Source: Podospora anserina | Lineage: Eukaryota | NCBI GenBank assembly: GCA_017654855.1 | Contig: CM030336.1 | Span: 4,278,001-4,342,000, forward strand | DNA length: 64,000 nt | Direction: 5' to 3' | Shown here: positions 7,649 to 44,086 of the stretch, one piece after another | How the letters are laid out: each line of letters begins with the position of its first letter | Position numbering within the stretch: the first letter of the stretch is position 1 | Program-made: the position numbers and the translations under genes | The notes under the pieces: generated by a model | Databases searched by the model: none | What the model was told of the DNA's origin: nothing | What the model saw: the letters and a program-made list of their open reading frames with translations, nothing else

Positions 7649-8534
7649 ATGCTCGCAGAAACCCTCACCACGGGGCTGCTGCTCATCACGAGCGCCAGCG
7701 CCCTCCCAGTGATGAGCCCACTGGAGTACGTCAAGCGAGCCGTCAACCCCGGCGTCGTCATCAGCAAATGCAGCCAGCCAAACATGCTGGCACTTGCCTA
7801 CGACGACGGTCCATACACATACACCTCTCAGCTCGTCGACATCCTCGACAGAGGCGGCGCCAAGGCCACCTTCTTCTGGTGCGGTACCCTGTACGGATGT
7901 ATCTACCGCCAAGAAGCCGCCGTCAAGAAGGCATTTGCCTCTGGCCATCAAGTTGCCTCTCACTCATGGTACAGTACTCCCCTTTCCACCTCACCCGTCC
8001 ATCATCAGTCTAATAACCTGCCACCAGGTCCCACAACAGAATGGGCTCCATGAACGCCAACCAAATCCGCACCGAAATGACCCGTGTCGAAGACGCCCTC
8101 GTCAACATGGTCGGCGTCAAACCCGCCTACATGCGGCCTCCTTATCTCGACACCGGCGGCCAGTTCTTGAACACGATGAAGACGATGAACTACAAGGTCA
8201 TCACCAACGACATTGATTCCGGAGACTGGAACAACGTCAGCCCCCAGCAAGCCCAGCAGCGGTTTCAGCAGGCGGGTGCCCGTGGCAATGGGCATATTCC
8301 CCTCATGCATGAGGTGTATCCCGGAACGGTTAACACGCTGACGCCGTGGTTGATCAACTGGGCGAACCAGAATAACTTGAAGCTTGTTACTGTTGGTAAG
8401 TTGCTTTGACGAAGAAGAGTCAAGGTTTTGACAGTGTGCTGACTGAGATGGAAATAGCTGAGTGCGTTGGTGATCCAGAGGGCTCATATCAGCCTGGTAA
8501 TTGGACTGCAAAGGTTGGGCCGTACAACTGCTAA
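7649..8534 (+). CDS. Secreted polysaccharide (chitin) deacetylase, CE4/NodB (exons 7649-7968, 8028-8395, 8458-8534)
   Basis: Signal peptide. Motifs ALAYDDGP, ATFF, HSWSH (across intron 1), MRPPY, DSGDW, LMHE and VTVAECVGD (across intron 2). Both introns are GT..AG. Confidence 0.93.
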
Positions 8535-20900: not shown

Positions 20901-23900
20901 TGCGGTACCACCGTCGATCCCGGAATATCACCAACCCATTGGAGAATCTGATACTGGTGACTCCGCCTCGAAAACTACAACGAAAAAGGTTCTGCGAGTT
21001 TGAATCAACATGGGTGAGTTTGTGCTGACCACCGGTCTCCCGAGGTATCAACGGTCCACTTCGTGCCAATTAGGGCCGATATTATGCTATCGATGGAGGG
21101 ATCAAATGAGCAAGATCACGACGAATGGGCCCAGCATGCCCGTGGATTACTGGCACAATCCCGTCTTAACACGGGCTGTATTAAGACTCCACTTCTTCAG
21201 CGGTTCCCAAGTTGGGTAACACTCACCCACCCAGCTGGCTCACCGGTGGTATATCAGATCGCTGTTAAGACCCCATTGGGACGGCTGGGCAGCCGCTTCT
21301 CCCCAGTTCAGCGATGAAGTGAACCAAGAATGAGCCGTGCCGCACGGATGCACTGCGGGGATGGTTACGGCAGTGCCATTCCGGCCCAGGTCGTTGTATC
21401 TGCATCACCTGGTGGAACCAAAGAACCCTTTATCAACCTTCAACATCATTGCGAAGTGTTGTACTGATAGCAGAAAGATCAAAACGTGTCAAACGGGCAG
21501 GTTCTTGTTCACGTTTCGAACGACTATTCAGGCCCGGTCAGCGGTACAAGTCCCAGATGTCTCGCGGAGAGTGCCGTTGCCCGTAGGCTCACACTCCCAT
21601 GTCACCAGTCGTGGTTACACAAGCCCCCTCGCCACACAAAAGGTCATCACCATCGGCGTATTATTGCCATACTTGTCCTGCCACTGCTGTATTATGTCTT
21701 TGAGGGTTGGTAAGCAACACATCAGCGCCCGCAGCTCTCCAGGTAAGCCAGTATAAGTCTTTCCTGAACCATGCTATAAGCACGTCGAGATCTGGCTGGT
21801 TAGGTAGGTATATCCATCATGAAGTTGCTGTCAAGTATCAGACGACGTTCTGTTCCCAAAACTAACCAACCACGACGAATCTGATGTCAGCTTTGGACCC
21901 AGGCTAGCTCACCGGGGAAATTCCCGTCCGCATTGCGCGCGCGGCGGGCCATCCCAGCACCCTTCGGCGCCGTCAGCAGAGGCGGTATGGCCAGCGTCTT
22001 CGGCACCCGGAACACACCCACCTCTCGTGAAAAGAAGTGCGCATCACATCAACAAGGCCTGGCCCGAGATACCGAAAATCACGTTGGTTCTTTTCCTGTG
22101 CGAGCCCGAACCTTGCCACCGGTGAGGAGAGTATCGAACCATGTTCGGATTCGAAGGATTGTAGTCCAAGCGCAAAGCGGCACAGCAACACTGCTCAGAG
22201 AGGCTGGACATGTGTTCAAGCTCATTACTTTTAGGTATTCTTTTCGTTGTTTCGGTTTCATGAAGGCATGTGGCACCTGCTGCTGGGTCACTTCCAGGGT
22301 TTCGTGGGGGTGATGGTTGGAAATCCCAACCCCGCACATTGGTTCGGGCAAAGTTCCCACGTGGGGTCGTTGGCGAACAGGGTGTGAGGTCTTGTTCTTC
22401 ACCGCTGTCTAGCAGGCTCGCCATCTGCAAGTGCTAGTGGTCAAAGAAGCGTGATGATTATGTGTTTGCCAGTACCTGTGACCGCCAAAACATGCGTGCT
22501 CGCTCTCTCTCTGCATGTAGGGTTTCCTTCTACCTTGGTCTTGTATGCCCGGTTGGCAGTCACCCATCGTGCCTATCTACATCTTCCTATACGTGCGGTT
22601 CACTCCCGCCAGCAACGTTACCAGCCTCACGGCACTTGAGCCCTCTGACGCCCCCACATTGTGATATCAATAAGCTGGGAATCCTCCGCGGAGAAAGTCG
22701 CTTCCCTCTTCATTGCTTTTTTCCCCATTGGTCCGAGACAAGGGGGGCTCAGAGTTCGGATTCATTCAGTGTTCTGGAGGGAAGGCTTGGTTCGGCACAG
22801 GTTGCCGAACCCCTAGTTTAGAGCAACCCCCGGATCAAGGCCGGGCTACCTATCAATTGTGGGACCGGTAGGTCGGGGCCGGGGGTGGAGTTCCCGCTTA
22901 GTAACTAACAGATCACCCGCCCGCACGGATGGCCGTGGGATTTGTTTGGGTGCTGTACCCCTGGCTTTCTGCCTGTAAAGGGATCGCATTGCCTTTTGGG
23001 GAATAATTTTGGGGTTCTGCTCTGGAGCAAGGGGATCAACGGGTATCGATAAGATAGATAGATAGCTGGGAGGGAGGTTGTTATGGGTGGTGGTATGTAT
23101 ATGTAGGGGGGTTGCATACATGCATGGAGTGTCACGGGACAGGATGAATGCGGTGGGATGGCTGAACTGATGCGAACAGGTCTGGTTCCTAGGAATCCTC
23201 GACGGTGAGTGCGGCTTCAGGATAATTGTCTCGTGCGGGTTCAAAGCAAGGGAAACTAAGGTCACCAACACAACGCCTCAAAATGGCGTCAGGGATGAAC
23301 GGACGGATGGTGGATCTGACGTCATATCAGATCCTGTCATCATGTCTGTCTTGAGGGATTTCGAAACGGCGCGTCCCACCGGGGCGAGCGCGGGCGCGGG
23401 ATGAAAAGAGATGACCATCTGATCTCGAGGAGTAGTTGACCGCGTTTGAGATGGATGCACGATGAGGGAGCGGAGTTTGGGCAATGTGTGAGGTATCAGA
23501 TATGGGATGTGGGGGTTTGATCGGGGTTGGTGTGTGTGTGGGTGTGGCTGCATGAACCAGCTGAAAAGTCCGACGTATTGGTGGTGGACAGTGTGGGCTT
23601 TGAGCGTGCAAGTACGGACGTGGGGGCTGAGGGATGGAATGCCCAATGGACTTGGGTTTTGGGGAATATTATTCGTCTTTGATGGAGGTACATCAGCCCT
23701 GGAAGGTGTTATTGGTATCAAAAGCCTCAAATCTCGTTCCCTTGCCTTGATATATTTTAAGATGGCGCGGTGAGGAATTGTTGCGCGGGTGGTAACTTGG
23801 TCTGGAAAATACAGCGAGATACCAACATCTAGTTGGAGATGTGTTTCAACGTTGGACACCCAAGTATCTGTAGGTACTTACTAAAACCATGACTGAGGCA

Positions 23901-26900
23901 AGATGAAGTACGTACTGTCTTTCACTTGCCGCCGGCAGGCATCTGGCGGTTGATGAAGGGCTGTTGAGACCACGCTCTCAGGGATCCGTTAACTGACCAG
24001 ATGCCACAGCGAATATGCTCTCAACATAAGAGATGGGCCTGAAGCTGTCTCACGACCGAAATCTACCACTTGGGCTCCCGAAGCTTATTTCGCACGGAGA
24101 TGCTGTCTATAGCCGGCACTTGAAAGTACCTAGGCTATATAGTGCTCGTGTCATCAGGCAAGTCTGAATGAGTAAAGTTCAGATGATATTGGCTGAAGTT
24201 GGAATGAGAGATCGGGGACGTTTAATTTGTTTAGATGAAAGACTAGAGGAGTATGTAGGAGACACAGACAAGGAGTTCAGACTATGGACATAATTGCTCA
24301 GACAGAGCCCATCAACTGCACCTATCATTGACTTTTATCTCTTAGAAGCCGGATGGAATGTGTAGGAGAATTTCCCCGTTGTCTAATTGGAAGATTATAG
24401 GATGGATTGTAAAGCGCTTCGTAATATTAGAGTGGATGTCGCTATGTCTATGCACGCGTTGACACAAAGGGAGTCATACACTTTGGTGCTCGATACCTAG
24501 CAGAGTGTTTAATGGACCTTTGTTGAAAATGATGTAGTCTTCTATTTACCGAGCAAGTGTTCCTTAATTTCCATGAGCTGCGAGAGCCTGGTAACTGCCT
24601 GAGACCTAACTTATGTTTTCTTATTAAGAGGAGGAGAGGTAATAAGGTACCTAGTAAGTACCGTGTTCATGTTCTATGATGATGCACTGCCCTGGCTTGA
24701 TTCCAAGTCATGAACGATAGTTAGTGACGTAACCTGTTTCACCAGAACTACACGAAACATCGCAATACTCTGCCTCTCCCCTTGTTTCCACCACGGTGCT
24801 GCACTGTCCTCTATGCCAGTCGAGTCGCAGCGTCATGGTTGTCAGTCTGTGTGACAGCTGTCGTCCGATCAATCGACCGAACTAGTGCATGCGTGCACAG
24901 CATATGCCGCTCTTGTCAAGCAAAAGCCGGAGTAGGCTGCATAAGATGAAGCTCATGTGACTTGAACGAACCACTGTGTTTCCTGCTGATTGGCGAAGCA
25001 ACCGTAGTATTCATTGCTCTTCAGATATGCCTATCGACATAATACCTGAGATGATCGATTAAGAAGGGACTATAGTACCAGTGAGCAGACGGCTCGCCAA
25101 ACACTCAACGGAAAAGGTCATACGTCAGGATGTATGCGGTGTCTCAGAATTTCTTCTCGTGGCAACAGTCCGGCTCATAAACCAAGTTCCTGGGTCTAGA
25201 TCTCAGTCCAAAAGCTGAAATTGATAAATACACTGTCCAGAAGGCACACTCCCCACCCATAGCCCCTCCTTCAATCTGTCTCGAACATGTCATACCACCT
25301 CTAAAGGGTATGCCGACCATATCAAAAAAACATGGCAAAAGCATAATTGACAAATGGACCTTCTGCATCTTGTCGGTCGTTACCAATCTGTCGGGTCCAT
25401 CAGCTTCAACTGCCAACTCAGCTCTTGAGTTTGAAGCTGAAGTGGGCAATCTATTCGTTGTCACAAGGGAATTACCAGGTACAGCATATAATCATGTGAG
25501 ATATGACTGTAGACTCGGCCTTGATTCCTTGTGTTTGAGTGCAGCTTCCAGGAATTCAATCTCCGCATAATAACTTGTTGCTTCTTCTGAGAAGGACTGG
25601 AGGCGGAAGAATGAGTGGTGACAGGATAGATTGAAACGAAAGCTGGAACCTGCGATGCAACGCACCAACCCCGGCATTCCAGACCCTAGGGACTCCCGCC
25701 CTGGATTGCCTTGCAGCAAGTTGTCAGTCAAGGACAGAAATTAACATCAGACATACTCATGGTCCTCGAGGATGGCCATCCCCTCTGAGGCCTACATCTG
25801 TCTTGTTGATTACCAGAAACACTCTCCGGTTCCATTTGTTTCGATTTGCCGGGGGAGCAACCTCAACTAGGTACTCAGTCTCCCAAGCAAGCGAAGCAAC
25901 CTAGCGGTCTAGACACAAGTTCCTGTGATAATGCCCAAATGTGCACTCGAGAACAAGCTGTTCTCAGAGAACCGCCACAACTTAGTGTCCCATCGATCAT
26001 AGAAGGGACGGACAAGTCAGATTGTTGTTGGCGAAGGAGGTACCCCGGGGACATCTCAAAGGTACAAAGCCACAAACGGAGCCAGCCTCCTCGCTTCCCC
26101 AGGTATGCCCCTCCGTTTTGACAGTGACATATCACTGCCCTTTTCGTCGTCGTGCATGGGAGGTGGGCGCTCCCTCCCGCCAGCCCGGTAACGTTCCCCC
26201 ACGGCACCCTTGGCGCCTTCGCTACGTGGCGAGTTGGGCCCCAGCGTTTGCATCGCGATAGGGTCGTGTCTCGCCTTTATTTGGCGTTTTGTGGCTCTTG
26301 GGGCGAACCAGACGCCACGACGATAAGCTGTGATGCAGGAAGAGAGGGGGCTTGAGAATGGTTCGTCAAATGTATGTACTATACCTGACAATTCGTACCC
26401 GATGGGTGGAACCCGGTGTGACAGATCTCAAGCAGCTTGCCAAGTTGGTGGTGTCGTTCATGAGATTTCCTGCTTCCAATGTTTTCGTGCTTCCAGCCAA
26501 TTATCGGTTCAGAATTCCCGACAATGACAGCGCTGACAGTGGAGGCCTGCGATCTTGGTTGGATCGGAACAAGCACGGGAGATGTATCGAGGGCTGCTGG
26601 CACAAACAGCCCGAGTCACGAGATGCAGATGCCGCATTTCACCAGCTACCGGGTTCTCGGAACCGAGACGCAGGATGGTGTGAATGGGGGATTGCCGAGC
26701 TTTGTGGTTCCTTGTCATGGGCCGGATTGCAAAGTCATTGCAGGTATGTCGTCCGGGAGGTATGGTTTGCTACCCCTACGAGGTATCCCGCTAACCAATA
26801 ATACGCCGTGATAGAAAGAGATTCCATGTTTGTTAGAAGCAGTTGCTTGAGTGTCGGTTGTTTTCTTGGTTTCTGAATGTCGACAGCCTGCCGAGTCCCT

Positions 26901-28106
26901 TTTCATGGCTGTCGGCTGTTAGCTGAGCAAGCCAGTTTTGGTCGGCGAACTTGGCGAGAACAATGGAATCGAATATGCAGGGGCGCAATAGATGATCGAT
27001 TCCCGAAGGAGCACTGCCGACTCAAACATAGGTTTCCGGTCGCTGTATCCGCACCGCAAGCTAGCCAAGGACCGGGCTGATAATCGTTCAGTTGTATCAC
27101 AACGTCAAAGATCACCATTTCATTGTGTTTCGTCCCGGTTGGCTAACTTGTGATGAACAGGTGTGCAAGCATGGTGGTACCGCGGGCGCCCGGACACGGC
27201 TCCGGGTGCAATGTTTGCTCGATTTGTGGCCGAATCGGACAGCTCTGACTGGTCACTTTGGCTTCTTCTTATGCCGCTATCCTGTGAAAAGGTTGAAGTC
27301 CGAGAGAACGCGGCGGTAGTGGACATTGAAGAATATCGGAAGACGACATTCTTCAGCCCGCGTTCAACCACCGGGACTTATTTCCTTCCTCGAAAGCAAC
27401 ACGGTCCAAGTCGGCGAAGCTAACACCACTAGTGTAGACAAGTTCATTTGGTTTCCCAGGATTGTTTGTCCCGCACTACTGCAGCCACCCGTTGAACAGA
27501 CTGGCGGGGTGGTGGTCTGATGCCCAGGATCTTGGGGTTCGGGGTAGATGGAAACGGTACAGTAGTAAACGGAATCAAATTGAGCCCTCCTTGTTAAGCG
27601 ATGGGGTTAGCTAAGTAGGCAAATGCAAATACAGCAAGCATGCTTTGTAGTCGACACCTCGATTACTACTTTACTACTGGCCAAATACCGAAGTCGCTCA
27701 CATCTGGTTGGATATTCCGTAATGTGCTTCATATGTAGGGATATGCGGATAGATTCAAGTAAAAGCTGACAAGCAAATGCCATGACAAATTGATGTGGAA
27801 TGTTGTGTTGACCCAAATCGCAAGCTCAGATTCATTGCACAAAAGAGCGTGACTAGTGCCTTCCTGCCTTCGGTGCTGCCCCAACGCCCCTTCCCAATCT
27901 TGAACTTGTCAAAGGTAATTCAGGCAGGCGCGTTGGTCTTTCCAGCTCCACCCACCTTCCTAACTCCCGGCATGGCAAGTATTTGAAATCCGGCCGAAAC
28001 ACCGTGTAATTCCGTGACCGTGATATTCCGCGGTATTATGAGACGAAACCCAAGCAACAAGTGCCCTACCATAGATCGCCGCTTTTAAGGCCTCTTCGCC
28101 CCTTGG

Positions 28107-28148
28107 CTCAGCTTCTGCTCAGCTAGCTATTCATCAGCCCCGCTCAGC
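28107..28148 (+). repeat. Left subterminal CTCAGC cluster
   Basis: CTCAGC at 28107, 28118 and 28143, plus ATCAGC at ~28133. Confidence 0.7.
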
Positions 28149-28150
28149 TC

Positions 28151-30359
28151 CCCATCGGCCCCAGTCCGTGACAGAGGCAAGTATCTCAACATTGGCATTC
28201 CACAGGATATCTGAAAATACTAACTTGGTTGCCAGTTCATTAAGGGACCTCTAGCAAAAGAAATGGACATGCCGAAGCATAAAAGGCGTCGAAGGTTCGC
28301 TACGAAAAATGCCATGCTCAACTACGCCAGACAGCTCTGGGCGGCAGATTGGATTGAGCACAAACAGCAACACCTGTTGATGACTGGGGTCTCTCATTGG
28401 GCAAAGCCTACTCTTCTTCCCGGATTGGGGAGTATATCGAGTCCACCTGCCGCGGGGGAACCGGTCGAGGCCTCTACTTCAAGGTAACGATATTGCCCAT
28501 GGCCCAGCAACCCAGGCAAACGCTAACCAGCGCCCAAGGATCTCACATTTGTGGTATTCATCAACGAGGAAGGGGTGCCGGAGTTCGCCATTCAGCTGAC
28601 CCGAGATGCCAAAAATATGACCAGTACGCCTAACAAAAGGTAGGAATCATCGCTCAGCTCTTGAATCCTTCTTCTCATCCCTCTTTACTTTAGACCGCAA
28701 CACGCCTTATACGAAGGTATCAAACCTGGAGTGCTCTGCTTCAATCCTATGCTTCCATTTCTGGCTAGACTTCTTGCATACGAAGCTTTCAGGGACTACA
28801 AAACCATTGACGAGCTTCTCACGATCAAGCCACCGGAAGGTGAGATGTGGCTGGTACAATGGAAGGAACATCTTCTTGAGACGCCATTCTTTAGAAGTCG
28901 GTCAAGCGAGGATATCGAGACTGCCGGTGCCTTTAGCCATCGACTGCCGTCACTGGGTCTACGAGCAGGATACCCAACACCACCGAGACATCATGATATT
29001 CTGGCAGAGGGTCTTCACCTTATGAGTACGTATTAGATTTTTCCCCCCTTTGTTTTCTTCTACTAACATGTCCTCACCAATAGATCAATTCGAATCTGAA
29101 GCCACGCGGGTGGTCTATGCCGGATATACCGACCCAAATACGCTTGCTACACATTACCTACTCCGAAACGGCGCAGATGGCCAGGCAGCCTACCACGGCC
29201 AGAGAGACGAATCTTGGTCCTTGACCTCTTCTGAGGTTTAACGATACCTCGAAACCCGAGGCTTTGGCAGTGCATTCCAGCCAAACAGCAATACGACTGT
29301 TATACCAGCGCTGAAATGATGCACATTAATCGAGAAATCCTTACGCTACGGGGCACAACCAATATAAAGTCCCAAGAGCAGCGTAAGAAGCTTTACGCGG
29401 AGAAGCGGAAACTCATTGCCGAGCGATTGCGAAAGTGGCAAAACAACCAGCCAGTCAAGCACGACGATCTGCCAGGATACCATAGAGCGATATTTGACCG
29501 TGTCCGGTTCCTGATGCCGGAATGGGACCGCCTGGCACAAAACCTCTTCCTGATTGACAAGCTACGGAGCCCTGCAGGTCTTGCTGTGCTCCATGACATG
29601 CTGAGTCTTTACCGGAAGCGTCGCAATGTGGAGTATCGGCCAGGGCTAGAGCCAGATAGGTGCTACTGCAGAAAGAACAGTGACGGCTCTTCCTACGACT
29701 GGAGACACATATACGATTGTCACAGAACAGCTGCTGCGAAAGCTGGTGGCTTTGCAGAGCTATGCTTCCTCTGCAATGAATGGTTTTGCGGTATCGGGGC
29801 CTGGGAAACTCACTGTCAACATCGCTTGGACCACCCGGACAGCCTTCCGACGTGGTGCGATCCTCTGGCTTACGGCGCGGTTCTCGCCAGGGCTGGCTAC
29901 TGTCCGTTCTGCCTTGGAGATGAACGAATGCCAGCATCTGTGCGGATGTACCAATTTCAGAAGCGGTGGACCTGGCTCGATCACATCCAAACCCACATCA
30001 GAGAGCTCGAAAATGCAACTAGGCCCTTGAACTGCCCACGCCTGCATTCTCATTGTCCACGAAGGTTTGATTCGGTTTTGGATTTACAATTCCATCTTCA
30101 GGATGCTTTCGGTGCCGAGCGCAGTGACGATACTAAGAAGATGAAAAGACCGAGACATGGGGTTAACGGCATCCCACCTTCGAAAGGAAGAGAGTGCAGC
30201 AGTTTCGCAATGATTGTGAAGAAAGCGACAGGATGGCCGCCTTGCAAACCAAATATACCTTTGGTAACACCTGCCCAGATGGTAAAAAAGGCAGTCATCT
30301 CCCGAATCGTCAGGGCTTTGCCAAGAGTCCACGCCTTTCTGCAGCTCGGGTACTACTGA
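28151..30359 (+). pseudogene. DUF3435 tyrosine recombinase (Starship captain-like), 5'-truncated, with frameshifts and a stop
   Basis: Spliced through introns at ~28181-28235, ~28484-28539, ~28640-28693 and 29026-29083. Reads QLWAADW...YSSSRIGEYIESTCRGGTGRGLYFK/DLTFVVF...TRDAKNMT...RPQHALYEG...NPMLPFLARLLAYEAF...TPFFR...LGLRAGY...HHDILAEGL...AGYTDPNTLATHYL...DGQAAY...DLF*GLTIPRNP. C-terminal CFLC/CPFC/C2H2-like Zn motifs. Frameshifts near 28370 and 29200. Confidence 0.8.
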
Positions 30360-31236
30360 CCGCGAAGACGCGACGCCATCCGGTCATAGCACTCCACTAT
30401 CTTCCGCTCCGTCCGAGAAAGTAATTGACCCGGCCATGTCCCTATTTGAATCGTGGCCGGTCGATAAGCTTACGGGCTGCACAGCTGGTGGCCCATTAGA
30501 GGCAACGCCGGACACCCCTCAGTGAATTCAAGGTACGATAACCTATTGAAACTGATACACTGGCTGATTCTTACCACATTATAGGCCCTCTCCACGGCTC
30601 TTTCCCTCGGGCCCTTGGTCTACAAGTCTCCATATCGAATTAAAGACAGAGAACTTATATCGCCTTAACCGTTGGGCTGGATCTCGCAAGTACTGCACAT
30701 CAGGGTCGGAGACAAATTCGGTGTGCCAGGATCCACAGGCCGAGACTGCGACATGCCAAAAAGAAGTCTGTGGCACCTCTGTTTGGATGTCATTTGGATG
30801 CAGGCACCGAAGATTGGCCTCTTGTCAGTTTCATGGTGGTGATAGATGATGGTAGTGAAGGAGAGAGCTGGGCGGGGCCTTGGTACTTCCTGTCTCGGCC
30901 CAGGACGCACGCCTCAATAGTGAATGCCTCAGGCACAAACCTGTGGCCACACCGGGATTGACCTAATCATCGCACCCGAACTGTGCACCAACGTCTATCG
31001 CCCCCTTCACAGCATCAACCATGCCACACCAAATTGATTGGCTCCTGGTTGACCACCTTCGAATCGTAAGCGCTCACACAATGCAGCTCTCTGTGCACGG
31101 CCTCTGAGCTTGTCGGTCCTCCCACCTCTCGCTGTGCAGAGGGATACTTATACCACTTGTGGCCTTCTCCGTCCCGCCCCTCATTATCAATTTGACGTGA
31201 TTTGAGTCATTTTGCTGGGCCCTCCTATAACTCACA

Positions 31237-32865
31237 ATGGCATGGACTATCTTCACCGTGAAAACCAGCGACTACATTGTCCTACACTCAGACAATCAGG
31301 CGTACTGGTCGACCATGGAGCGGAAATTCAAGCAAGACCTCTTCACGCCTGATAGTCCAACAGAGCACAGCGAGAGCGGCACACCTGCTCCTCCGCCACT
31401 TCCGCCTCTCAATATCCTCCGGTTTACGACAGAGCATATGCCCAAGGATCCTGGTACAGGATTCGTCTTGGGACCGATAAGGACAAATGCGACGTCCTCC
31501 TATATAACAGTCGGGAGTCAGGTATCAGTGGTAGGCAATTCGCCATGCCATTCCGCACAGATACTGGCGTATGATCCTAAGAAACCATTCCCGAGTATCA
31601 ACACAGATTAAGTTGCCGAATGAAGGTTTGGTCTATCTCGACACACAGAGGGCACAGGCGACATCGAAATCTACCTTTCTACCCTCGATGCTTCGACACG
31701 TCCGTTTATACCCGACAAGCCAGCCTCCTGTTCTGCCTAACTCTCTTTTAGGACCATATTATCCGGTTCTACGAATTCAGCGTTCGCGGTGAGGACGGGC
31801 CTCAACTTATCATGGAGTTCGCTGCGTGTGGCAGCCTCCTAGGCCAGAGTCAATCACGCAAGTTCACCGATCGAGAGGGCTGAAAAATCATTCGCCAAAC
31901 CCTTGAAGGACTCAAATACCTCCATGGAAAGCGTGTCATCCACCGGGACCTAAAGCCTGGCAATATCCTACTTGTCACCCGTAAGCCTATCCACGTCAAA
32001 GTAACAGACTTTGGCATCTCGGGCAATACGGCCGATGAGTACAATACTCAGTGCGGGACCGAGCTATACGCCGCTCCCAAGCTCTGGAATCCCCCCTACA
32101 CGGAAAAGATCGATATCTGGTCAGTGGGCATCATCGTTATGGAGCTCTGGGTCGGATTGCCCAAGTACAACCGTAACACATGGGCAGAAGATGTGATGTC
32201 TCGCAAAAAAACGAGCCTCTAAGGATGTCAGGCGCTTTCCCCACCACCTGTTACAATCTTCCTCCGGGAAACAGCCACCGGCTCAAGGCTGCCTCAACCT
32301 TCCATTTGTTAAGCCAAGGCGTAAATACGAAGGGGTGCCGGATTTGCATCCTTTGCAGAAACCGAGGCTTGAAATAGAGAGCCAGGACCCGACAGTGCCC
32401 TTCAATGACGCGATCCTCGATGCGGCCATTTGGAATTCTGTAGGGCCTGAAGCATCTTATGCCCCGGTCAACCCTGGGCTCCCCGATGAGGTCCCCGATC
32501 TGGCTACTTGGAATGCTCGAGGAGCAGCCAATCTTGGAACAGAGACTCAGGACCTAATCGTGCCCTTCAATGACGAGATCCTCGATACAGCCATTTGGAA
32601 TCCTGGGCTCGGAGCAACGTCGAATTGGCCACAGGGGGAAGCCACGCTTGCTTGCCCCCCGACCAATCCCATTTCCGAGATTTCAACTTGCATCCGCTCA
32701 TCCCCAGTCCTGGATTCCTGGAGGGGACCCAGACAATGCGCCATCGGCAGCGCAGGCCACGGCTCGCCACACCGGAAACACGAACGTCGATCAGAATGCC
32801 CAATAAGCCTCAAATCTATAATGGTTTTGATTTCCTCCCCTGGGGAACATCTGGATTCCATATAA
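31237..32865 (+). pseudogene. FHA-like + Ser/Thr protein kinase pseudogene (element cargo)
   Basis: N-terminal GFVLG-[fs]-TDKDKCDVLL...GISGRQF (FHA-like). Kinase motifs MEFA, LKYLHGKRVIHRDLKPGNILL (31941), KVTDFG (~32007), CGTELYAAPK and KIDIWSVGII. Several frameshifts; the Gly-loop/VAIK N-lobe was not found. Confidence 0.8.
32383..32604 (+). repeat. Two-copy ~57-bp direct repeat, 165-bp spacing, in the kinase tail
   Basis: CAGGACC..GTGCCCTTCAATGACG.GATCCTCGAT..GCCATTTGGAAT at 32383 and 32548, encoding QDPTVPFNDAILDAAIWN and QDLIVPFNDEILDTAIWN. Confidence 0.85.
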
Positions 32866-33459
32866 ACCCGACAACTGTACCATCAACATCACTCGGATTC
32901 TCAAAGCCGCAGGGTTCCCTCGTTCTAAATTGTCTACTCCAGAGTTGCAGTATGTGATATTCGAAAAGTTATCCTACGCGGTTACGTATGTCTTCAGGGG
33001 ACGTTCATCCCTTACGAAGATGCCATCTGCATATGTAATTATTTGGAGATTGAGTCAAATTTTCTAGATACTTATAGATACCTTAACCCTTGAACACTAA
33101 GGCTCCCTCCACAGATTGACCCCAGCCCCATACTCCCGAGGAAGAGGGCCAGGTGACGCTCAGGTATACTCTGCAGAACTATGGCGCTGAGGATTTGTCG
33201 ACTACGGTCCATTCATGTGATATGGCCCTGACTGGCTGACCACTTGGGGGGAGAAGCCATTGGAGGCATTGGAGGCCTTGGAGGCTGAGACCAAGTCCAA
33301 CAGGAATTAGAATCAGGTGTATCGAGTCTCGCGGACTTGGGTTAAAGGAGGTCGAATCCTCAATGCGGGCAAATCGAGCCGGGGCCAAAAACAGGACGTT
33401 GTCCCAGATCTGGGACCTTGCAGGGGCATGTGATCCCAAAAGTTGGCTTGTGCAGATAC

Positions 33460-33540
33460 CTCAGCTTAACCTCAGCTCAAGCTCAGCCCACCCCGGCCTC
33501 AACTCAGGCCCCCTCAGCCCAAGCTCAGCACCAACTCAGC
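33460..33540 (+). repeat. Right subterminal CTCAGC cluster
   Basis: CTCAGC at 33460, 33471, 33482, 33513, 33524 and 33535, and CTCAGG at 33503; mostly 10-11-bp spacing. Confidence 0.85.
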
Positions 33541-33858
33541 TTAGAGCGGCAGGAGCTCAGTTCTGGAAACGGAAATGGATGTTGGTGTGCTTGAGTCTCG
33601 TCTCCGAGTAGTTTGGCATTATATAAGGCATCGTGCCAGATCCTCAATCATTCTTGTTGGTTGGCTCGCACTAGAAATGTAACGTAAGCAGGTCAGCGCT
33701 GTTGGGTGGTAAATGGACACAAGTGCTGCTGTTGGCGATCTTGTGCGGGGGAGCGTCGGAGTCAAAAGTTGTGACATCCGTCATACTTAAACACCGAGAT
33801 TTCACAAACCATTAGGCTTCCTCAGTCCTGACCTACCCACCTTACACAAAATAAAACC

Positions 33859-35209
33859 ATGACATCCAGGCTCGACTCCATTCTTGAAAAGTATGTTGCC
33901 CAAGGCAACAACACGGCGAACAAGGTGTTGGGGGCATCACTGGTTGTCGCGAATGAAGATGGTACAGTACTTACCCCTCCCGCTCACTTGAGAAGGTAGG
34001 TAGCCATTAAAACTGACATTGTTTTTCCCAGAGGTGATTTACTTTGGCTCAGCAGGCCGCATTAAAATGGCCCCTGATGCTCCTGCATTTTCGACCGACT
34101 CTTTCAGCTTTGTCGCGTCTATGACCAAAATCATCACCATCATCTGTGTCCTTCAAATCGTCGAGCGAGGTCTCATCGGACTGGAAGACGATATCCGCCC
34201 GCTGGTCCCTGAGCTGGCTTCGGCACAGATTCTGAAGGGTTTCGACGAAGAAAATGGTGGTGCCCCCATCTTGGTGGAAAACACAGTGCCCATTACGCTG
34301 AGACATCTCTTGACGCACACCATAGGCCAAGGGTACGATGTTGGTGACCCAGATCTGTTGCGATGGTCCCAGTACATTGGGAGAACAGTCAATGCAACCA
34401 CCTCGACGCGGGAAGGCTGGGACACGCCTCTCAAATTCGAACCAGGAACGGGTTGGTACTACGGCACTGCAATCGACTGGGCGGGATTTGCTCTTGAAGA
34501 GCTCACAGGAACAACACTTGGCGAATACATGCAGGAGCACGTTCTCGATCCACTGGGAATGGACGAGACCACATTTCATCCGTTGCGACCGGAGATCTGG
34601 GAAAAGGTCAAGGACCGATACGTGGAAGTTTCTTATCGAGCTGCGGATGGTACACTAACCGAAGGACCACTCATCACACCGCTTGAACCGCCTGTTGAAA
34701 GTGGTGGCTCTGGACTGTTTACAACAGCTGCTGATTACATCAAGTTCTTGCAAGCTTTGCTGCAGGACACAAAGGGCAAGGGTAATCTGCTGAAGAAAGA
34801 AACTGTTGACGAGCTTTTCCGGCCTCAGTTGAACGACAAACAGAAGGAGGACGAGGCAAATATTTTGATCGGGACAGGTTTCGCACCGGAATTTGATGAG
34901 CTGACTGCCAGTGAGATAAGCTGGGGGTTGGGTGGCGGCATTAATTTGGTGGATCTGGCAACGGGAAGAAAGAATGGAAGCATGATGTGGTCTGGGGTGG
35001 TCAACCCGCATTGGGTGAGTCTCTCTTTTGTTTCCCCCCTCATTCATTGCAGCTGGCTGACGTTGATGACTCTCAAGATTATGGACCCGACTACCGGAAT
35101 CACTGCAACACTGTTTGTCAGTGTCTTGCCGTTTGGTGACCCAGTTCCAGGCAGGCTTTTCAAGGAGCTCGAGGCCGTCATATATGGCGAGCTGCTGTCG
35201 GAATGTTGA
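33859..35209 (+). CDS. Beta-lactamase-family serine hydrolase / LovD-like transesterase (exons 33859-33961, 34032-35014, 35078-35209)
   Basis: ASMTK (SxxK), ITLRHLLTHT, PLKFEPGTGWYYG, YMQEHVLDPLGM, SGGSGL and GSMMWSG; canonical introns. Confidence 0.9.
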
Positions 35210-35376
35210 TATCTGGAATAGTGGCCTTGGTATAGACGAAAAAGTGATGACGACATTTGCCTTTGAGGTAGTAGGTGGCCTGTGCTGAAGCTGTTTTTAC
35301 TTGCTCTTTGACAACTATCGAAGACTTTGTTCCAACATGGCAAACCTTTGCAATTCTCACTTTGATAACGTCTGAC

Positions 35377-35778
35377 ATGAGAACAACGAGATCCGCCAAT
35401 AAGAAACTGACAGAGAGCCTGTCTAACCCACCAAAGAAAGCCAACCAACCGTCAAAGTCATTCCCACCCAAAACCGACGACGGCCATTACATCATCGTCA
35501 ACGGCCGCAAATGGCGCGCGACAGATCCCCTGGTTCCCGATAACGCCCTGGCTGAACTAAAGCATTTTCTCGCCAAAGGGAGATCCGGTGCACGCCGACA
35601 GAATAAAAATGACATGCAAAAGCTGTCGTTATCGCGCAAAACAACCGGACTGGCCAAGCTCGGCCTTGGAGAACGCGGCAAGCCAGAATGGTGGAACGAT
35701 ACAGATGAGGGTCGCAAAGAAAGATGGGAGAATGCATTGATCCAACTCCGGGAGCTTCACGCCGAAAGTTCAACATGA
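35377..35778 (+). CDS. Small basic hypothetical protein (133 aa) resembling a bacterial uncharacterised family
   Basis: Intronless ORF with TDDGHYIIVNGRKWRATDP...AKLGLGERGKPEWW. The resemblance to a bacterial family is from memory only. Confidence 0.7.
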   Translation: MRTTRSANKKLTESLSNPPKKANQPSKSFPPKTDDGHYIIVNGRKWRATDPLVPDNALAELKHFLAKGRSGARRQNKNDMQKLSLSRKTTGLAKLGLGERGKPEWWNDTDEGRKERWENALIQLRELHAESST

Positions 35779-35932
35779 TATTTACAACAGCCCAACCTCA
35801 ACATCCAGTCATGCGACACATCGTATATACTGCCATCAGACCCATGATAATGCTCATTTCGACCATGATACCCTCATTCCATCCATGATACCCTCGTGTC
35901 ATATCTACCATAATGACCATAACTATCTCATC

Positions 35933-37285
35933 TCAAAAGTCCACATACCGCTCACTCTTCCCCGTCCTCGTCGTCATGGTCGAAATACTCGACATAGTCG
36001 ACCACCGCCTCTTCACCCCAGTTTCCTTGTTCTTCTCCTTTTCATTATCGCACAGTGCCCCCCTCGAAGGCCTGGTATACCGGTTGTAATACCCCCACCC
36101 CTGCTCACTCGCCTTGACCTCCGTCCCCCTCAATATCAACCTATACTCCGTCACCGCCGCCTTGGGCATCTTTTTCTCTTTCCTCAGCACATTCCTCAAC
36201 AACAACCCTCTGGCACCGGCCCCATCAAGCAACCTCCTCCTTTTACCCCCCGCACCCCTTGTTTTAGACGACCTGGTCTCCTCATCAGCCCCCCGTTCAG
36301 CCATGATCTCCCCTGCTTCCACTGCCACCATGACAACAACCTTCCATTCCCTTCTCTTGAACGCGTTACTACTGCTTGTCGTCCTGTCGTTGAGCAAATC
36401 ATAGATTTCGTCCTGGACTTTCCAGTCAAGGCACCGGAGCCGACGGTCGAGATCGCCGGCATGCATGGAGGGGGGTTTTCCGGTGCGGGCGGTGAAGTGG
36501 GTTTTGTCGGAGGCGATTTCAGACAACAGTTCGGTTTGGGTGAAGTGGATGTTTGGGGTGATGGACAGGATGCGGCCTTCTTCGATTTCGGTGCGTCGGC
36601 AGAGGGGGAAGGGGAGGCCGAGGAGGCAGTAGCGGGTGGTTAGGCGCTCGATGGGGGCGTGGTAGGTTATTGTCCAGGATTCGAGGGTGGAAGAGTTTGA
36701 AGTACTGCTGGAAGTGGAGGGGCCGGGAGAGGCGTGGCTTTTCCCCCCGCGGTGTGGTTAGTGAGGTGCCTGTCAAACGGTGGGGGGATGGGAGAGAATT
36801 TACAGGGCTTTGGATTGATAGAGGAGGTCCCCGAGGCAGGAAACACTTTTTGGTCGGTTTTGAAAGGAGAGATCAGGGGTGTTGACTCTGAACGGTGGGG
36901 AGCGGGTTTGGAGTATGGTTGATTGGGATTTGCTTCGTTGGACGGGGTAGGGGATGGTGGTGGTGGTTGCTTCTTTTTCGAAACATGTTGATGATGATCT
37001 TGACGAGGAGGTTGGCGGTGGGGAGGCGTATCGTGCTGGTGGGAAAGAAGCGACCGTTACCACCGTTCTTGCCCGCGCTCGTGTTGCCGCCACGGCTATC
37101 CTTTCATCAAGGGAGAGGTAGTCGGCTGGTGCCCCGAGGAATACGACTTCTTTTTCTCCATCTCGACCGTCGAATTGTAGCCCGGATATGTCATCGAGGT
37201 AATCGAGATCGGGGATGGAGGGTAGGCTCGGCGGTCGCATGCTGGTGGTGCTGGTCCCACTTCCGGATCTCCTTACCGCCGCCAT
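35933..37285 (-). CDS. Hypothetical protein (exons 37285-36804, 36737-35933)
   Basis: A 66-nt intron (GTAAAT...CTAAC...AAG) joins the 161-aa ORF to an open frame (HASPGPST...RYCLLGLPF...LLSEIASDK...RREWKVVVMV...EYRLILRG) that ends at 35933. Confidence 0.75.
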
Positions 37286-38633
37286 CTTTTGGGTCTTTTC
37301 GCCCTGTCCAGTTCCCTTCTTTTCTATTTCTTTCTTCAGCTCGGTATGTGGAAATGAGGAAACGAGGAGAAAGGGTCGGTTTAAGCTTTATGGGAGACTG
37401 GGGAAAACTGGGGGCCCTGAGTAGGGTCCTGAGTCCTGCGCCCGCCGGGGGTCCGGTTTATGCCGGAGTTTCTTGTGTCAAGGACTGAGACTTGCCCACT
37501 TTTTCGGCGTCAAACCGTCAACGGTGTTGTTCTGGCGGAGGCGAGATTGAGTCGGGTGATGCTTGTCGGGGTAGGTGTTCTGGAAGGGGATTCTTTCGGC
37601 CATTGCGGCAGGAGGAGTGGAGATGGCAGTTTATACATATCGCCAACATTTGTCGTGCCGGGAAAAGTTTATTTTGACGGTGCTGTGGGATGAGGCAAAG
37701 AAGTATCATCGGGCGGTTACAAGTACGGCGTTTTGATGGGTGAGACGCTTGACATCCGATTGCATGGTGCGAGCCATGTTGTGTTTGGGGGAGGCGCAGC
37801 TGTTGAAGATTGCCGAGGGCTAAAAAAAGGTGCCAACGGTTATTGTTTTGTCGGCTCAATCTGATTGAATGCGGCGTACATGTAGTTGGCGAGGGTTTGA
37901 TGGGAGCATTCGCAAACTGTGCCTACCAAACTTCCGAAGGGGTAAAAGGCGCAGCGCTTGGTACCAGGTAGATATTGAGCATTCAAAGATATGATCGCTA
38001 TCCATCACACATTCGGAACTGTGACATTTACAACAGCACTCTTCGGTGTACATCAATCAACCTATTCAGCACTGTTGACAGCCTTTCGAAACGGCTGGGC
38101 AAAACATTGCTTTCATCCGCCTAGAATGTCAACGTGAGCAGCCACATGCATTACACATCAGTAGGTAAGTAGGTAAGGTAAGTCATCGCAAGCGGCTTTC
38201 TCCACTCAAAACCTCCATAACGATCTGCTTAGTTCGACCGCCAACTCGGGACAGTGTAAGCTCTTCCCTGCTTCTATGAGGCTTTGGTGTATTATGTGGG
38301 TTGGCCAAGAGTCAAGCTCTGAGACTCTGCGACCGGTGGGCGGAATCATGATTAGTGTCCCGTCAGAGGAAACTATGAATTGGCGAGGTGATGTTCTGTG
38401 GAAGCCAAAAAATTCCCCGTCCGCAAAACTAGGCCGGTGCGACTATTGCAGATGGCAGGATTAGTGCTTCTGTCCCAAACTTCTCTTGTGCACGTATATA
38501 GACAGCCAAATACCTAGGTACTCGGCCTTAGGCATGTGATATGTTCGTACCTTGGGGAAGATTTCCGGAATCTCTCTGCCATCTCTGTCAGATAATCAAA
38601 ACGGGCCAGCATCTGACATAACACCTTCTCCGC

Positions 38634-42509: not shown

Positions 42510-43554
42510 TCAGATACCATGAACCTTTAGCTCCTCCTCGGTCCATTCAAGCAACTTCATAACCAACCCTTGGTCTTTTGTCATGACTGAACCACACCCC
42601 TTCACCCCAACAGGATGATAATACTCTCCCGTTTCCACCTCCTCAGATGGGCCAACTGCAGCCCAAAGCTGATTCAGACATCCCACCTCAGGTTTGGTTA
42701 GCATCCACCGAAACAACCAGTCACCAATTCTCACAAGTCGGTATTTGCTGATAGTTGCCCCTCCTATGTTTGTGCTCACCACTCCGGGGTGGAGTGAGAC
42801 ACACTTGATCTGGGGATATTCTTTCGCCAGGGCTTTCATCCACAGAATGTTGGCCAGTTTGCTCTCTGCGTACCTTGTCCTGTACTATCCATCAGTATCA
42901 ACTCCACCAGCAAGGAGTGACAAATTCCAGTTTCACCCATGAGACTTACCACCAAAAGCTCGTCTTCATATCTGTTTTGACCTTTGCAAAGTCAATCTTC
43001 GGCGAAGATCTGTGACCACCCGAGCTCACAGCCACAATCCTGACATCCTTTTCTTCTTGAATCTCAACCGTTTTTAGGAGAAGAGGCATCAACAGCTTTG
43101 TCAGAGCGGCATGTCCCATGTGATTAATCCCCCAATGAACCTCATACCCATCTTGCGTCACACCGACTGGCATCGCCATCACGCCTGCATTGAGAATCAT
43201 AGTATCCAGTCTTTCAGACTCCTTGAGGACCCTTTCAGCGGCATCTTTCACTGACTGCAGTGAGGCCAAGTCAAGAATGAGGGGAACAATGATAGTCGAG
43301 GCCAAGGGAACCGTGGCTGTAATCTCATATATGGCGGACTGGATTCTGTCGATATCTCGAGATGCGAGCCAAATCCGGGCCGGGGGAGATGGTGAGTGCT
43401 GGAGGAGGGCCTGGATGGTGGCTTTGCCGAGACCGGAGTTGCCGCCTGTGATGAGGACGGTTTTACCTTGGAGGGAGGGGATAGAGGTTGAGGGGTTATA
43501 TTTGATGGGGCCTAGGCCGAGGAGAGAGGTGAAAGTAGATCTAAGGGACTCCAT
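42510..43554 (-). CDS. Short-chain dehydrogenase/reductase, retinol-DH/WWOX-like (exons 43554-42950, 42879-42510)
   Basis: TGGNSGLG, LDLASL, LNAGVM, INHMGH and VSSGGH. The intron restores RYAESKLAN (YxxxK). SLHPGVV follows. Confidence 0.93.
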
Positions 43555-44086
43555 CGTTGCTAGCTAGACTGCGGTGAAATCTTTTAGAAGTTCTTGATCT
43601 GGCTTGCGGAGGCTGAGGCACGCCACCGTGGTGGTTGATGTGGCTTGCATTAGCGCCGGTAGCTCCATCTTAACGGTGACTTGTGAGGCAGGCAGGCGCG
43701 AAGATCGGTTAAACCTGCCAGAACTAGAACAGTTAAACGAGCAGATATTGAGCTTTCAGATGGTTAGGGAGCCATCATTTCATGCCTGGAAATCGTCTCT
43801 TCATTTCAAGGTGCGCATTACTTGTGCTCTAGAGCAAAGAAGGTCCGGGCGATAGCTCTTGTACCTAGGTACCTTGCGCTGCCTGTGTAACCTCTGCTTT
43901 TTCTGAGCCAATCAATGCGCTCAAACTACCACAACTATTCAGAAAGTCGCAGCTTCAGCTGAGCTTCGGTCGGGATGGGTGCCTTGCAGTCAGCCAGCTC
44001 TGGGCTTCAACTTCGAAGCAAAGAGGCATGAGTGTATTTCATCTCTCTTCCTTCCCTTTTCCACCCCGAGTTGTCTTGCTGACAGC

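What the first reader, a model, noticed from the sequence alone, without database searches (positions are those of the whole stretch)
28078..33550. Miniature, decayed Starship-like element: captain, kinase cargo and defined termini in only 5.5 kb
Seen: a multi-intron DUF3435-type tyrosine recombinase begins within ~100 bp of an imperfect inverted repeat (GCCGCTTTTAAG ... CTTAGAGCGGC), an FHA-like/kinase gene follows, and ordinary genes resume right after the right end. Known: Starships carry a DUF3435 captain as first gene plus cargo and are normally tens to hundreds of kb. Inference: this is either a non-autonomous deletion derivative that kept both ends and could be mobilised in trans, or a member of a compact DUF3435-element lineage. 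The gene is fragmented across six-frame ORFs, so it is easily missed.
Basis: partly seen in the sequence, partly recalled or inferred. Interest (0 to 1): 0.85.

Follow-up and report, generated by a model that had tools for sequence, protein, structure and literature searches.

The report
Dead Fusarium-like Starship captain relic
About 5 kb of Podospora chromosome 5 holds two broken genes, a Starship-type recombinase and a kinase, acquired from a Fusarium-like fungus; it is a dead remnant whose recombinase is already in print, not a working miniature transposon.

Summary
The 12/11-nt inverted repeat is at chance level: 89% of 600 random window pairs score as well.

The recombinase does not begin near the left end; it is cut off there. 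It matches only residues ~120-836 of 1032-aa Fusarium Chromo+DUF3435 proteins. The N-terminal ~119 residues and both chromodomains are absent from the whole window. It carries 4 frameshifts and 2 in-frame stops.

The kinase is also dead. It lacks ~100 residues, has an in-frame stop and changes frame many times.

Exact or near-exact protein look-ups identify the two genes as Podospora anserina Pa_5_10116 and Pa_5_10118. Vogan et al. 2021 already describe Pa_5_10116 as a pseudogenised Kirc (Enterprise captain) homologue. They report it as highly similar to Fusarium homologues and absent from P. comata and P. pauciseta.

New here:
- The neighbouring kinase pseudogene is also closest to Fusarium oligoseptatum.
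- The recombinase nests inside a Fusarium clade.
- The block is fixed and collinear in all runs examined.
- CTCAGC-rich direct tracts bracket it.

Verdict: a derelict, horizontally acquired fragment. Low interest.

The parts
28078..28089 (.). It is a chance match, not a terminus.
   Evidence: the pair scores 7.5, reached by 89% of 600 random pairs; it is not among the 25 longest of 98 inverted pairs.
28106..28154 (+). Left CTCAGC-rich low-complexity tract, directly upstream of where strong homology to the Fusarium recombinase starts.
   Evidence: (family D2). Direct similarity to 33460-33526 scores 19.5, reached by 1 of 600 random pairs.
28155..30640 (+). Tyrosine-recombinase pseudogene (Kirc-like, DUF3435 plus Zn-finger region) = Pa_5_10116.
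- It covers residues ~120-836 of the 1032-aa homologue P0004.
- The N-terminal ~119 residues and the C-terminal chromodomains are missing.
- Five introns.
- Frameshifts near 28365, 29202, 30183 and 30286-30340.
- In-frame stops at 29232-29234 and 30523-30525.
- Substitutions HDIR>HDIL and AGH>AGY.
   Evidence: window ORF 29316-30356 shares a 90% cluster with PODANS_5_10116.
30641..31236 (.). Spacer without recognisable homology. It presumably contains the deletion scar that removed the chromodomain exon(s) and whatever lay between the two genes, plus the kinase's upstream region.
   Evidence: no match to the C-terminal 200 residues of 4 homologues. ORF 30644-30961 has no Pfam family.
31237..33093 (+). 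FHA-like Ser/Thr kinase pseudogene = Pa_5_10118.
- Both gene ends are present.
- Residues 158-257 of homologue P0028 (start of the kinase domain) are deleted between 31695 and 31752.
- In-frame stop at 31881-31883 and a second stop near 32828.
- About nine changes of frame.
   Evidence: PODANS_5_10118 matches 31237-31530 and 31752-31880 at 100%.
33094..33457 (.). Tail after the kinase stop. Its origin (foreign or host) is undetermined.
   Evidence: ORFs 33179-33460 (-) and 33240-33611 (+) have no Pfam family; a short 9-nt repeat at 33258-33285.
33458..33541 (+). Right CTCAGC-rich degenerate tandem array (period 11/21, about 3-8 copies). It is a direct-orientation counterpart of the left tract.
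   Evidence: (D2).
33540..33550 (.). Right arm of the proposed inverted repeat. It sits at the end of the tandem array and is a chance match.
34004..35209 (+). Native flanking gene, beta-lactamase/esterase-like (PF00144). It marks where the host genome resumes.
   Evidence: 94% to P. pseudopauciseta QC763_510120, 83% to Cercophora samala, 79% to Triangularia setosa, 45-48% to Fusarium species.

Best explanation
The block from ~28155 to ~33093 (at most 28104-33541) is an inert relic of horizontally acquired DNA in Podospora anserina chromosome 5. It holds two pseudogenes, Pa_5_10116 and Pa_5_10118.

Pa_5_10116 is a Kirc-like (Enterprise-type Starship captain) tyrosine recombinase. Its intact relatives combine DUF3435, a Cys/His-rich Zn-finger region and chromodomains.

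Pa_5_10118 is an FHA-like Ser/Thr kinase.

Both genes are closest to proteins of the Fusarium solani species complex, so they most likely arrived together on one piece of a Fusarium-type mobile element.

Inferred history:
1. A captain-bearing element, or a piece of it, integrated between native genes in an ancestor of P. anserina.
2. Deletions then removed the element's 5' end with the captain's first ~119 codons, the chromodomain part with whatever lay between captain and kinase, and about 100 codons at the start of the kinase domain.
3. Frameshifts and stops accumulated.

Nothing in the block can act today. There is no intact recombinase, no recognisable termini and no second copy.

Shown: gene identities, truncations, disabling mutations, Fusarium affinity, fixation in the species.
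Inferred: that a whole Starship once sat here (about even odds against capture of a fragment), the direction of transfer, and the order of deletions.
For: Identity of the genes:
- Window ORF 29316-30356 clusters with PODANS_5_10116.
- PODANS_5_10118 matches the window at 100%.

Published description:
- Pa_5_10116 is a pseudogenised Kirc homologue, highly similar to Fusarium homologues and absent in P. comata and P. pauciseta (PMC8092012, passages; preprint).
- P. anserina S mat+ is listed with one Kirc homologue (Suppl. Table S3 passage).

Fusarium affinity:
- The recombinase is 88/85/83% identical to F. oligoseptatum, F. sp. LHS14.1 and F. piperis. The next non-Fusarium, non-Monosporascus hit is 45% (27 hits among 3648 candidates).
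- In the ML tree it sits in a 4-row Fusarium set (98/99), a 5-row set (100/99) and a 7-row set (100/99). The only Sordariales row (Bombardia) falls in the other main clade.
- The kinase's ungapped segments are mostly 80-93% identical to F. oligoseptatum P0028; the frameshifted C-terminal segments are lower (52-65%). Other full-length relatives are 42-50% identical. The 6 that carry names are all Hypocreales.
- The flanking gene is 94% identical to a sister Podospora and only 45-48% to Fusarium.

Truncation and decay.

Not an assembly artefact:
- Contigs from 4 runs of 4 studies cross 19001-38000 collinearly, with 1-4 SNPs and no indels.
- 19 of 19 indexed runs hold at least 0.99 of the words.

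Age: two further assemblies carry about 5% diverged copies of the kinase tail that share the window's out-of-frame reading. The gene was therefore already broken before those copies diverged.
Against: - In F. oligoseptatum the best recombinase and kinase matches lie on different contigs (19.9 kb and 97 kb). Linkage in a donor is therefore not shown.
- No DNA of any Fusarium copy or of a sister-species empty site could be fetched. The block's exact edges and the claim of a single insertion event are untested here.
- Direct Pfam support for DUF3435 in the window is sub-threshold.
- The tree is rooted at midpoint only, so the direction of transfer is inferred from nesting.
- Diverged copies in other assemblies (P0308, P0309) sit uneasily with the published absence from two sister species. 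Reconciling them needs loss or introgression.
Confidence: 0.85

Rival explanations
1. One reading: a non-autonomous miniature Starship that kept both termini (28078 and 33550) and could be mobilised in trans by a related captain.
For: - The block is bracketed by similar CTCAGC-rich tracts; only 1 of 600 random pairs is as similar.
- The literature reports the recombinase gene absent in two sister species.
- A 5.5-kb degraded Enterprise exists in another Podospora strain, at another locus (PMC8092012, section 7).
Against: - The proposed TIR is at chance level.
- The best inverted alignment of the ends is a long, gappy, low-identity match.
- The captain ORF itself is cut at the left edge, so the element's original 5' end should be gone.
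- No RGGTAG or CTACCY motif lies at either edge.
- There is no other copy of the ends in the window.
- No empty site appears in 4 of 4 laid runs, and 19 of 19 indexed runs hold the block.
- Only one Kirc homologue is listed for the reference strain.
Confidence: 0.04
2. One reading: a member of a compact (Crypton-sized) DUF3435 element lineage in which recombinase plus kinase is the whole element.
For: - Several Fusarium homologues sit on short contigs (5.8, 12 and 19.9 kb), and F. oligoseptatum has at least 2 copies, as expected of a repeated element.
- Enterprise is formally classed with Cryptons, and one of its conserved 'crew' genes (Chekof) has a kinase domain.
Against: - The window copy lacks about 30% of the recombinase at both ends, so it is not a complete unit whatever the lineage's size.
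- Recombinase and kinase are on different contigs in F. oligoseptatum.
- The smallest Starship with defined boundaries in the starfish survey is 15,020 bp (PMC11162782, passage).
Confidence: 0.05
3. Only a fragment ever entered: a piece of foreign DNA (part of a captain plus a kinase) was captured at a break in a host CTCAGC-rich tract by end joining or microhomology. No whole Starship ever transposed into this site.
For: - The CTCAGC-rich tracts lie just outside the homology limits, in direct orientation. They are 2 of only 3 such clusters in 64 kb. This is what a split host low-complexity tract would look like.
- The recombinase is truncated exactly at the left tract.
Against: - The internal deletions (chromodomains, start of the kinase domain) show that large deletions did happen after, or independently of, entry.
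- Low-complexity similarity is weak evidence.
- This could not be tested without a sister-species locus.
Confidence: 0.25
4. Vertical inheritance: an old Sordariales gene pair lost in relatives and decaying in this species.
For: Diverged copies that share the window's frameshifts exist in two other assemblies, so the block is not extremely young.
Against: - 88% identity to, and nesting within, Fusarium copies, while the neighbouring gene is 45-48% identical to Fusarium.
- No closer Sordariales homologue appears among the 27 recombinase hits. None appears among the 7 kinase relatives whose names were looked up: 6 carry names, all Hypocreales, and 1 is unnamed.
Confidence: 0.02

Closest known systems
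Pa_5_10116 as described by Vogan et al. 2021 (Genome Res 31:789; PMC8092012)
   Same: It is the same gene. The window ORF shares a 90% cluster with PODANS_5_10116. The paper calls it a pseudogenised Kirc homologue, distantly related to Kirc, highly similar to Fusarium homologues and absent in P. comata and P. pauciseta (passages).
   Different: - The passages read do not mention the adjacent kinase pseudogene Pa_5_10118, the truncation points or the flanking CTCAGC-rich tracts.
- No paper in the searchable library holds Pa_5_10118 or the PODANS names.
- One supplementary file of the paper could not be searched.
Enterprise / Spok block Starship and its captain Kirc (Podospora)
   Same: - The intact Fusarium relatives share Kirc's domain plan: DUF3435 recombinase, a Cys/His-rich Zn-finger region and a chromodomain.
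- The captain is followed in the same orientation by other genes.
- Enterprise also carries a kinase-domain 'crew' gene, Chekof.
   Different: - The size is about 5 kb instead of 39-247 kb.
- The captain is truncated at both ends.
- No RGGTAG duplication or CTACCT||AGGTAG palindrome lies at the edges.
- The paper states the relationship to Kirc is distant.
- Whether the kinase is related to Chekof was not tested, because no Chekof sequence was available.
'Derelict' Starships and 'solo' captains (Gluck-Thaler & Vogan 2024, NAR; PMC11162782)
   Same: It is a captain-type gene without definable element boundaries, mutated beyond activity. The paper reports 10,212 such YRs against 559 elements with boundaries, and recommends the terms 'derelict' or 'degraded' (passages).
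   Different: - Decay here is by deletions and frameshifts, not RIP; the RIP indices match the flanks.
- In the supplement passage seen, the P. anserina entries are on chromosomes 4 and 6 only, so this copy seems to have been missed by starfish. The file was cut when stored.
Cryptons (small tyrosine-recombinase DNA transposons)
   Same: They are of similar size (a few kb), carry a multi-intron tyrosine-recombinase gene, and often lack TIRs.
   Different: - The closest relatives are Kirc-like captains with chromodomains, not the Crypton-F type.
- The copy is incomplete.
- Crypton domain content is recalled and was not tested here.

Membership tests
Pfam DUF3435 (PF11917) tyrosine recombinase | Match to the family model at or above the gathering score | tested here: inconclusive
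   - Window ORF 28665-29036: 15.8 bits against a cut-off of 25.8, E 0.0071.
- The annotated model P0312 gives no hit.
- The homologues scanned here pass: P0004 (72-75% identical) 48.9 bits, P0001 (88%) 38 bits.
Pfam DUF3435 (PF11917) tyrosine recombinase | Intact catalytic residues (the R-K-H-R-Y pentad named in PMC8092012) | tested here: not met
   HDIR>HDIL and AGH>AGY relative to the Fusarium homologues that cover these positions. That these two positions belong to the pentad rests on recalled box-II motifs. The PDB profile search aligned only the chromodomain.
Starship (giant cargo-carrying element) | Full-length captain as first gene at the 5' end, reading inward | tested here: not met
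   Orientation and position fit, but the ORF lacks the first ~119 residues and the last ~200. Neither is anywhere in the window.
Starship (giant cargo-carrying element) | Defined boundaries: terminal inverted repeats and/or direct repeats (target-site duplication) | tested here: not met
   The proposed TIR is at chance level. No Enterprise-type RGGTAG/CTACCY motif lies at the edges. Only low-complexity CTCAGC-rich direct tracts are present.
Starship (giant cargo-carrying element) | Empty site in a relative, or presence/absence polymorphism | not testable with these tools
   No genome of this species or of sister species is held. 19 of 19 indexed runs and 4 of 4 laid runs carry the block. The literature reports absence of Pa_5_10116 in P. 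comata and P. pauciseta, without junction coordinates in the passages read.
Starship (giant cargo-carrying element) | Cargo genes carried between the ends; size of at least ~15 kb in surveyed elements | tested here: not met
   There is one broken kinase gene and about 5.3 kb in total. The smallest surveyed Starship is 15,020 bp (PMC11162782, passage).
Enterprise family of captains (Kirc relatives) | Phylogenetic placement with Kirc; DUF3435 + Zn finger + chromodomain architecture | not testable with these tools
   No Kirc sequence or captain-family HMMs were available. The architecture holds for the Fusarium relatives. The paper lists Pa_5_10116 as a Kirc homologue, distantly related.
Crypton | Complete YR gene as the sole or main content of a few-kb element present in several copies | tested here: not met
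   The YR is incomplete and there is no second copy in the window. A genome-wide copy number was not testable here; the paper's table lists one Kirc homologue in the reference strain.

The most novel reading that the evidence does not exclude
The block is a genuine, internally deleted Enterprise-like element that still carries both of its termini. The termini would be the CTCAGC-rich tracts at 28106-28154 and 33458-33541. It would have moved from a Fusarium solani-complex donor into Podospora as a captain-plus-kinase core. That would suggest a kinase 'crew' gene (as Chekof is in Enterprise) is a conserved partner of Kirc-type captains, and that Starships can shrink to about 5 kb while remaining recognisable units.
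Probability: 0.06. Interest if true: 0.55.

Novelty: already known. Interest (0 to 1): 0.2.

Why it matters
Little changes. The recombinase pseudogene, its Fusarium affinity and its absence from sister species are already in print.

Three modest additions come from this work:
- The neighbouring kinase pseudogene shares the same Fusarium oligoseptatum-like origin, so at least ~5 kb with two genes came in together.
- The block is bracketed by CTCAGC-rich tracts. These give a concrete, testable prediction for the empty-site junction in P. comata and P. pauciseta.

As a dated, fixed relic it could serve as a marker of Fusarium-to-Podospora transfer of Enterprise-like elements, the family that carries the Spok drivers.

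Tried and rejected
- Whole genome of the window: not held, so genome-wide BLAST of the ends was impossible. Within the window the ends and the block match only themselves.
- Metagenome scan with the recombinase alignment: one 1,863-bp contig at 62% identity, with no flanks. It was useless for element structure.
- Earlier-findings look-ups by place and by the two proteins: nothing.
- PDB profile search, meant to map catalytic residues: only chromodomain matches.
- Pfam on 17 left-flank ORFs (19.6-26.8 kb) and 3 ORFs inside or after the block: no family.
- RIP indices and GC: the block does not differ from the flanks, so there is no RIP signature and no compositional island.
- Enterprise motifs: RGGTAG and CTACCY occur at 27542, 28638, 31671, 31679, 33833, 33994 and 33998, none at the edges. 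The full palindrome is absent.
- Laying contigs of 4 runs: no joint, loose end or indel. Within this species this gives no information on the edges.
- The NLR paper PMC13449251 (passages) held nothing on this locus.
- My first impression that the kinase C-terminus is KilA-N/APSES-like got no Pfam support in 11 proteins and is dropped.
- The weak similarity of 28104-28154 to the codons upstream in F. oligoseptatum (5 of 18 residues) is too weak to place the breakpoint more precisely than 28104-28158.
Full report
WHAT IS THERE

The window is fungal. The gene just right of the finding (34004-35209, beta-lactamase/esterase-like, PF00144) is 94% identical to Podospora pseudopauciseta QC763_510120. 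It is 83% identical to Cercophora samala, 79% to Triangularia setosa, and only 45-48% to Fusarium species. No whole genome is held for the window.

THE RECOMBINASE

The 374-aa ORF 29235-30359 finds 27 proteins among 3648 candidates; only lengths of 656-2000 aa were searched. The best matches are:
- Fusarium oligoseptatum, 88% identity over 85% of the query.
- Fusarium sp. LHS14.1, 85%.
- F. piperis, 83%.
- F. oxysporum f. sp. raphani, 75%.
- Monosporascus, 74%.
- F. coicis, 72%.

The next hits drop to 45% or less.

These proteins are 662-1032 aa long. They carry DUF3435 above Pfam's cut-off (P0004 48.9 bits, P0001 38 bits) and C-terminal chromodomains (HP1-type chromodomain matches in the PDB).

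In the window itself Pfam sees DUF3435 only below threshold: 15.8 bits, E 0.0071, on 1 of 12 ORFs. It sees nothing in the annotated spliced model P0312.

tblastn shows that the window copy matches residues ~120-836 of the 1032-aa P0004, and residues 30/50-774 of P0001. Homology runs upstream of the ATG at 28263, across an intron (28177-28235, GC-AG), to about 28155. There it stops.
- The first ~119 residues are conserved in the Fusarium homologues that extend that far (fully in P0004 and P0006, partly in P0002 and P0001). Their best match anywhere in the 64 kb has E 0.07, inside another gene.
- The last ~200 residues, which hold both chromodomains, have none better than E 0.18.

Five intron-like gaps fit the alignments: 28177-28235, 28484-28538, 28640-28693, 29026-29083 and 30533-30584.

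Disabling changes:
- Frameshifts near 28365, 29202 and 30183, and between 30286 and 30340.
- In-frame TGA at 29232-29234 and at 30523-30525.
- Two substitutions in the recombinase box, HDIR>HDIL and AGH>AGY. Their catalytic role is inferred from recalled motifs and was not mapped here.

THE KINASE

ORF 31884-32222 is a protein-kinase fragment (E 2.6e-30). The 222-aa ORF 32197-32865 finds a single longer protein among 506 candidates, F. oligoseptatum P0028 (697 aa), at 81% identity.

Most ungapped segments are 80-93% identical to P0028; the frameshifted C-terminal segments are 52-65%. Both gene ends are present (31237 to 33078/33093). The damage is extensive:
- Residues 158-257 are missing between 31695 and 31752.
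- There is a stop at 31881-31883 and another near 32828.
- The frame changes about nine times.

A search of 1.84 billion representatives with P0028 gives other full-length relatives at 42-50% identity. I looked up the clusters of 7 non-window relatives; 6 carry names, all Hypocreales: Fusarium mangiferae, F. gaditjirri, F. xylarioides, Epichloe bromicola, Cordyceps militaris and C. fumosorosea.

An FHA match at the N-terminus reaches Pfam's cut-off in 1 of 10 full-length relatives and is sub-threshold in 5 more.

IDENTITY WITH KNOWN GENES

P0176, named PODANS_5_10118 of P. anserina S mat+, matches 31237-31530 and 31752-31880 at 100%. The window ORF 29316-30356 shares its 90% cluster with PODANS_5_10116.

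Vogan et al. 2021 (PMC8092012; passages and section 7 read; preprint passages) state that Pa_5_10116:
- is the one Kirc homologue of P. anserina,
- is distantly related to Kirc,
- is highly similar to Fusarium homologues,
- is pseudogenised, and
- is absent from P. comata and P. pauciseta.

Their Suppl. Table S3 lists one Kirc homologue for S mat+ (passage). Kirc itself combines DUF3435, a Zn finger and a chromodomain, the same plan as the Fusarium relatives.

No paper in the searchable library holds Pa_5_10118 or the PODANS names. In the supplement passage seen for the starfish survey, the P. anserina recombinase entries are on chromosomes 4 and 6 only. That file was cut when stored.

FOREIGN ORIGIN

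In a maximum-likelihood tree of 27 rows (the window segment 29202-30185 plus 26 homologues, no rows dropped) the window copy sits within nested Fusarium sets:
- a 4-row set with F. sp. LHS14.1, F. oligoseptatum and F. piperis (support 98/99),
- inside a 5-row set (100/99),
- inside a 7-row set (100/99).

The only Sordariales row (Bombardia) lies in the other main clade. The root is at midpoint only, and the window row fills 34% of the columns.

Both pseudogenes have their best match in the same Fusarium species at similar identity. The native neighbour gene is less than 50% identical to Fusarium. This fits joint horizontal acquisition.

Against linkage in a donor: the two best F. oligoseptatum proteins lie on different contigs, 19.9 kb and 97 kb.

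THE ENDS

The proposed inverted repeat scores 7.5 in a simple local alignment. 89% of 600 random pairs of 100-bp windows 5462 bp apart do as well. It is not among the 25 longest of 98 inverted pairs in 27-35 kb.

The best inverted alignment of the two end windows scores 13.5, which only 2.2% of random pairs reach. It is, however, a long, gappy, low-identity alignment through quasi-palindromic CTCAGC/GCTGAG words, not a terminal repeat.

What does stand out is direct similarity:
- CTCAGC-rich tracts lie at 28106-28154 and 33458-33541. The latter is a degenerate tandem array of period 11/21.
- Their direct alignment scores 19.5, reached by 1 of 600 random pairs.
- They are two of only three such clusters in the window.
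- They lie just outside the limits of homology to the Fusarium genes.

I read them as possibly one host low-complexity tract split by the insertion, but could not test this.

Enterprise's RGGTAG/CTACCY motifs are not at the edges. No other copy of the ends or of the block lies in the window.

POPULATION DATA

All 19 indexed runs, from 6 studies, hold at least 0.99 of the sampled words of 25801-35800. Contigs of 4 runs from 4 studies cover 19001-38000 collinearly, with 1-4 substitutions and no indel or joint.
- This rules out an assembly chimera.
- It gives no empty site within the species.
- Three of the four variable sites (29097, 30445, 32465) fall inside the block. That suggests relaxed constraint, but the numbers are tiny.

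Two proteins from other assemblies (P0308, P0309; one contig each) are about 5% different from the window. They still share its out-of-frame reading of the kinase tail, so the gene was already broken before those copies diverged. Their contigs could not be fetched.

COMPOSITION

GC and RIP indices of the block equal those of the flanks. Decay was by deletions, frameshifts and point mutations.

VERDICT

It is wrong about the termini and about where the recombinase begins.

The interpretation as a miniature Starship with both ends kept is not supported. The captain is truncated at its 5' side, so the element's own 5' end is most likely gone. The block is a derelict remnant, or a captured fragment, of a Fusarium-type Kirc-like element, fixed in P. 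anserina.

Its main component is already published. The smallest Starship with boundaries in the 2024 survey is 15 kb, and boundary-less 'solo' captains outnumber bounded elements by 10,212 to 559 (PMC11162782, passages). This case is therefore an ordinary member of a common class.

The small additions are the co-acquired kinase pseudogene, the truncation map and the CTCAGC bracket.

Noticed in passing
window 19000-28100: A stretch of about 9 kb left of the block has no long conserved ORF. None of 17 ORFs of at least 115 aa hits a Pfam family. That is unusually gene-poor for this window. Whether it is native intergenic DNA or older decayed material is unknown.
   Followed up: partly
window 38634-40498 (-) and 59732-61931 (-): Two NLR-like genes. 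Both have an NPHP3_N/NACHT-type P-loop; the first also has a winged-helix domain and the second has ankyrin repeats. The first is split over several ORFs.
   Followed up: partly
window 43907-46282 (+): A single 791-aa ORF with a HET (heterokaryon incompatibility) domain, E 2.3e-32.
   Followed up: partly
window 32368-32440 and 32533-32605: A 73-nt direct repeat (84% identity) inside the kinase tail. It encodes a repeated 'QDPTVPFND.ILD.AIWN' motif that is also present twice in the Fusarium homologue P0028. It is therefore a protein repeat, not a transposon feature.
   Followed up: yes
window 26431, 29097, 30445, 32465: These are the only four sites that differ among contigs of four runs over 19 kb. 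Three of them lie inside the 5-kb foreign block.
   Followed up: no
proteins P0308 and P0309 (other assemblies; they map to window 32206-33090): These are diverged copies of the kinase pseudogene tail. Segments that need three frame changes in the window lie in one frame in these copies, so the copies have decayed differently since they split.
   Followed up: partly
window 52241-53953 (-), 42946-43563 (-), 2743-3585 (+), 8017-8409 (+): Ordinary metabolic genes elsewhere in the window: a UDP-glycosyltransferase, a short-chain dehydrogenase, a tyrosinase and a polysaccharide deacetylase.
   Followed up: no
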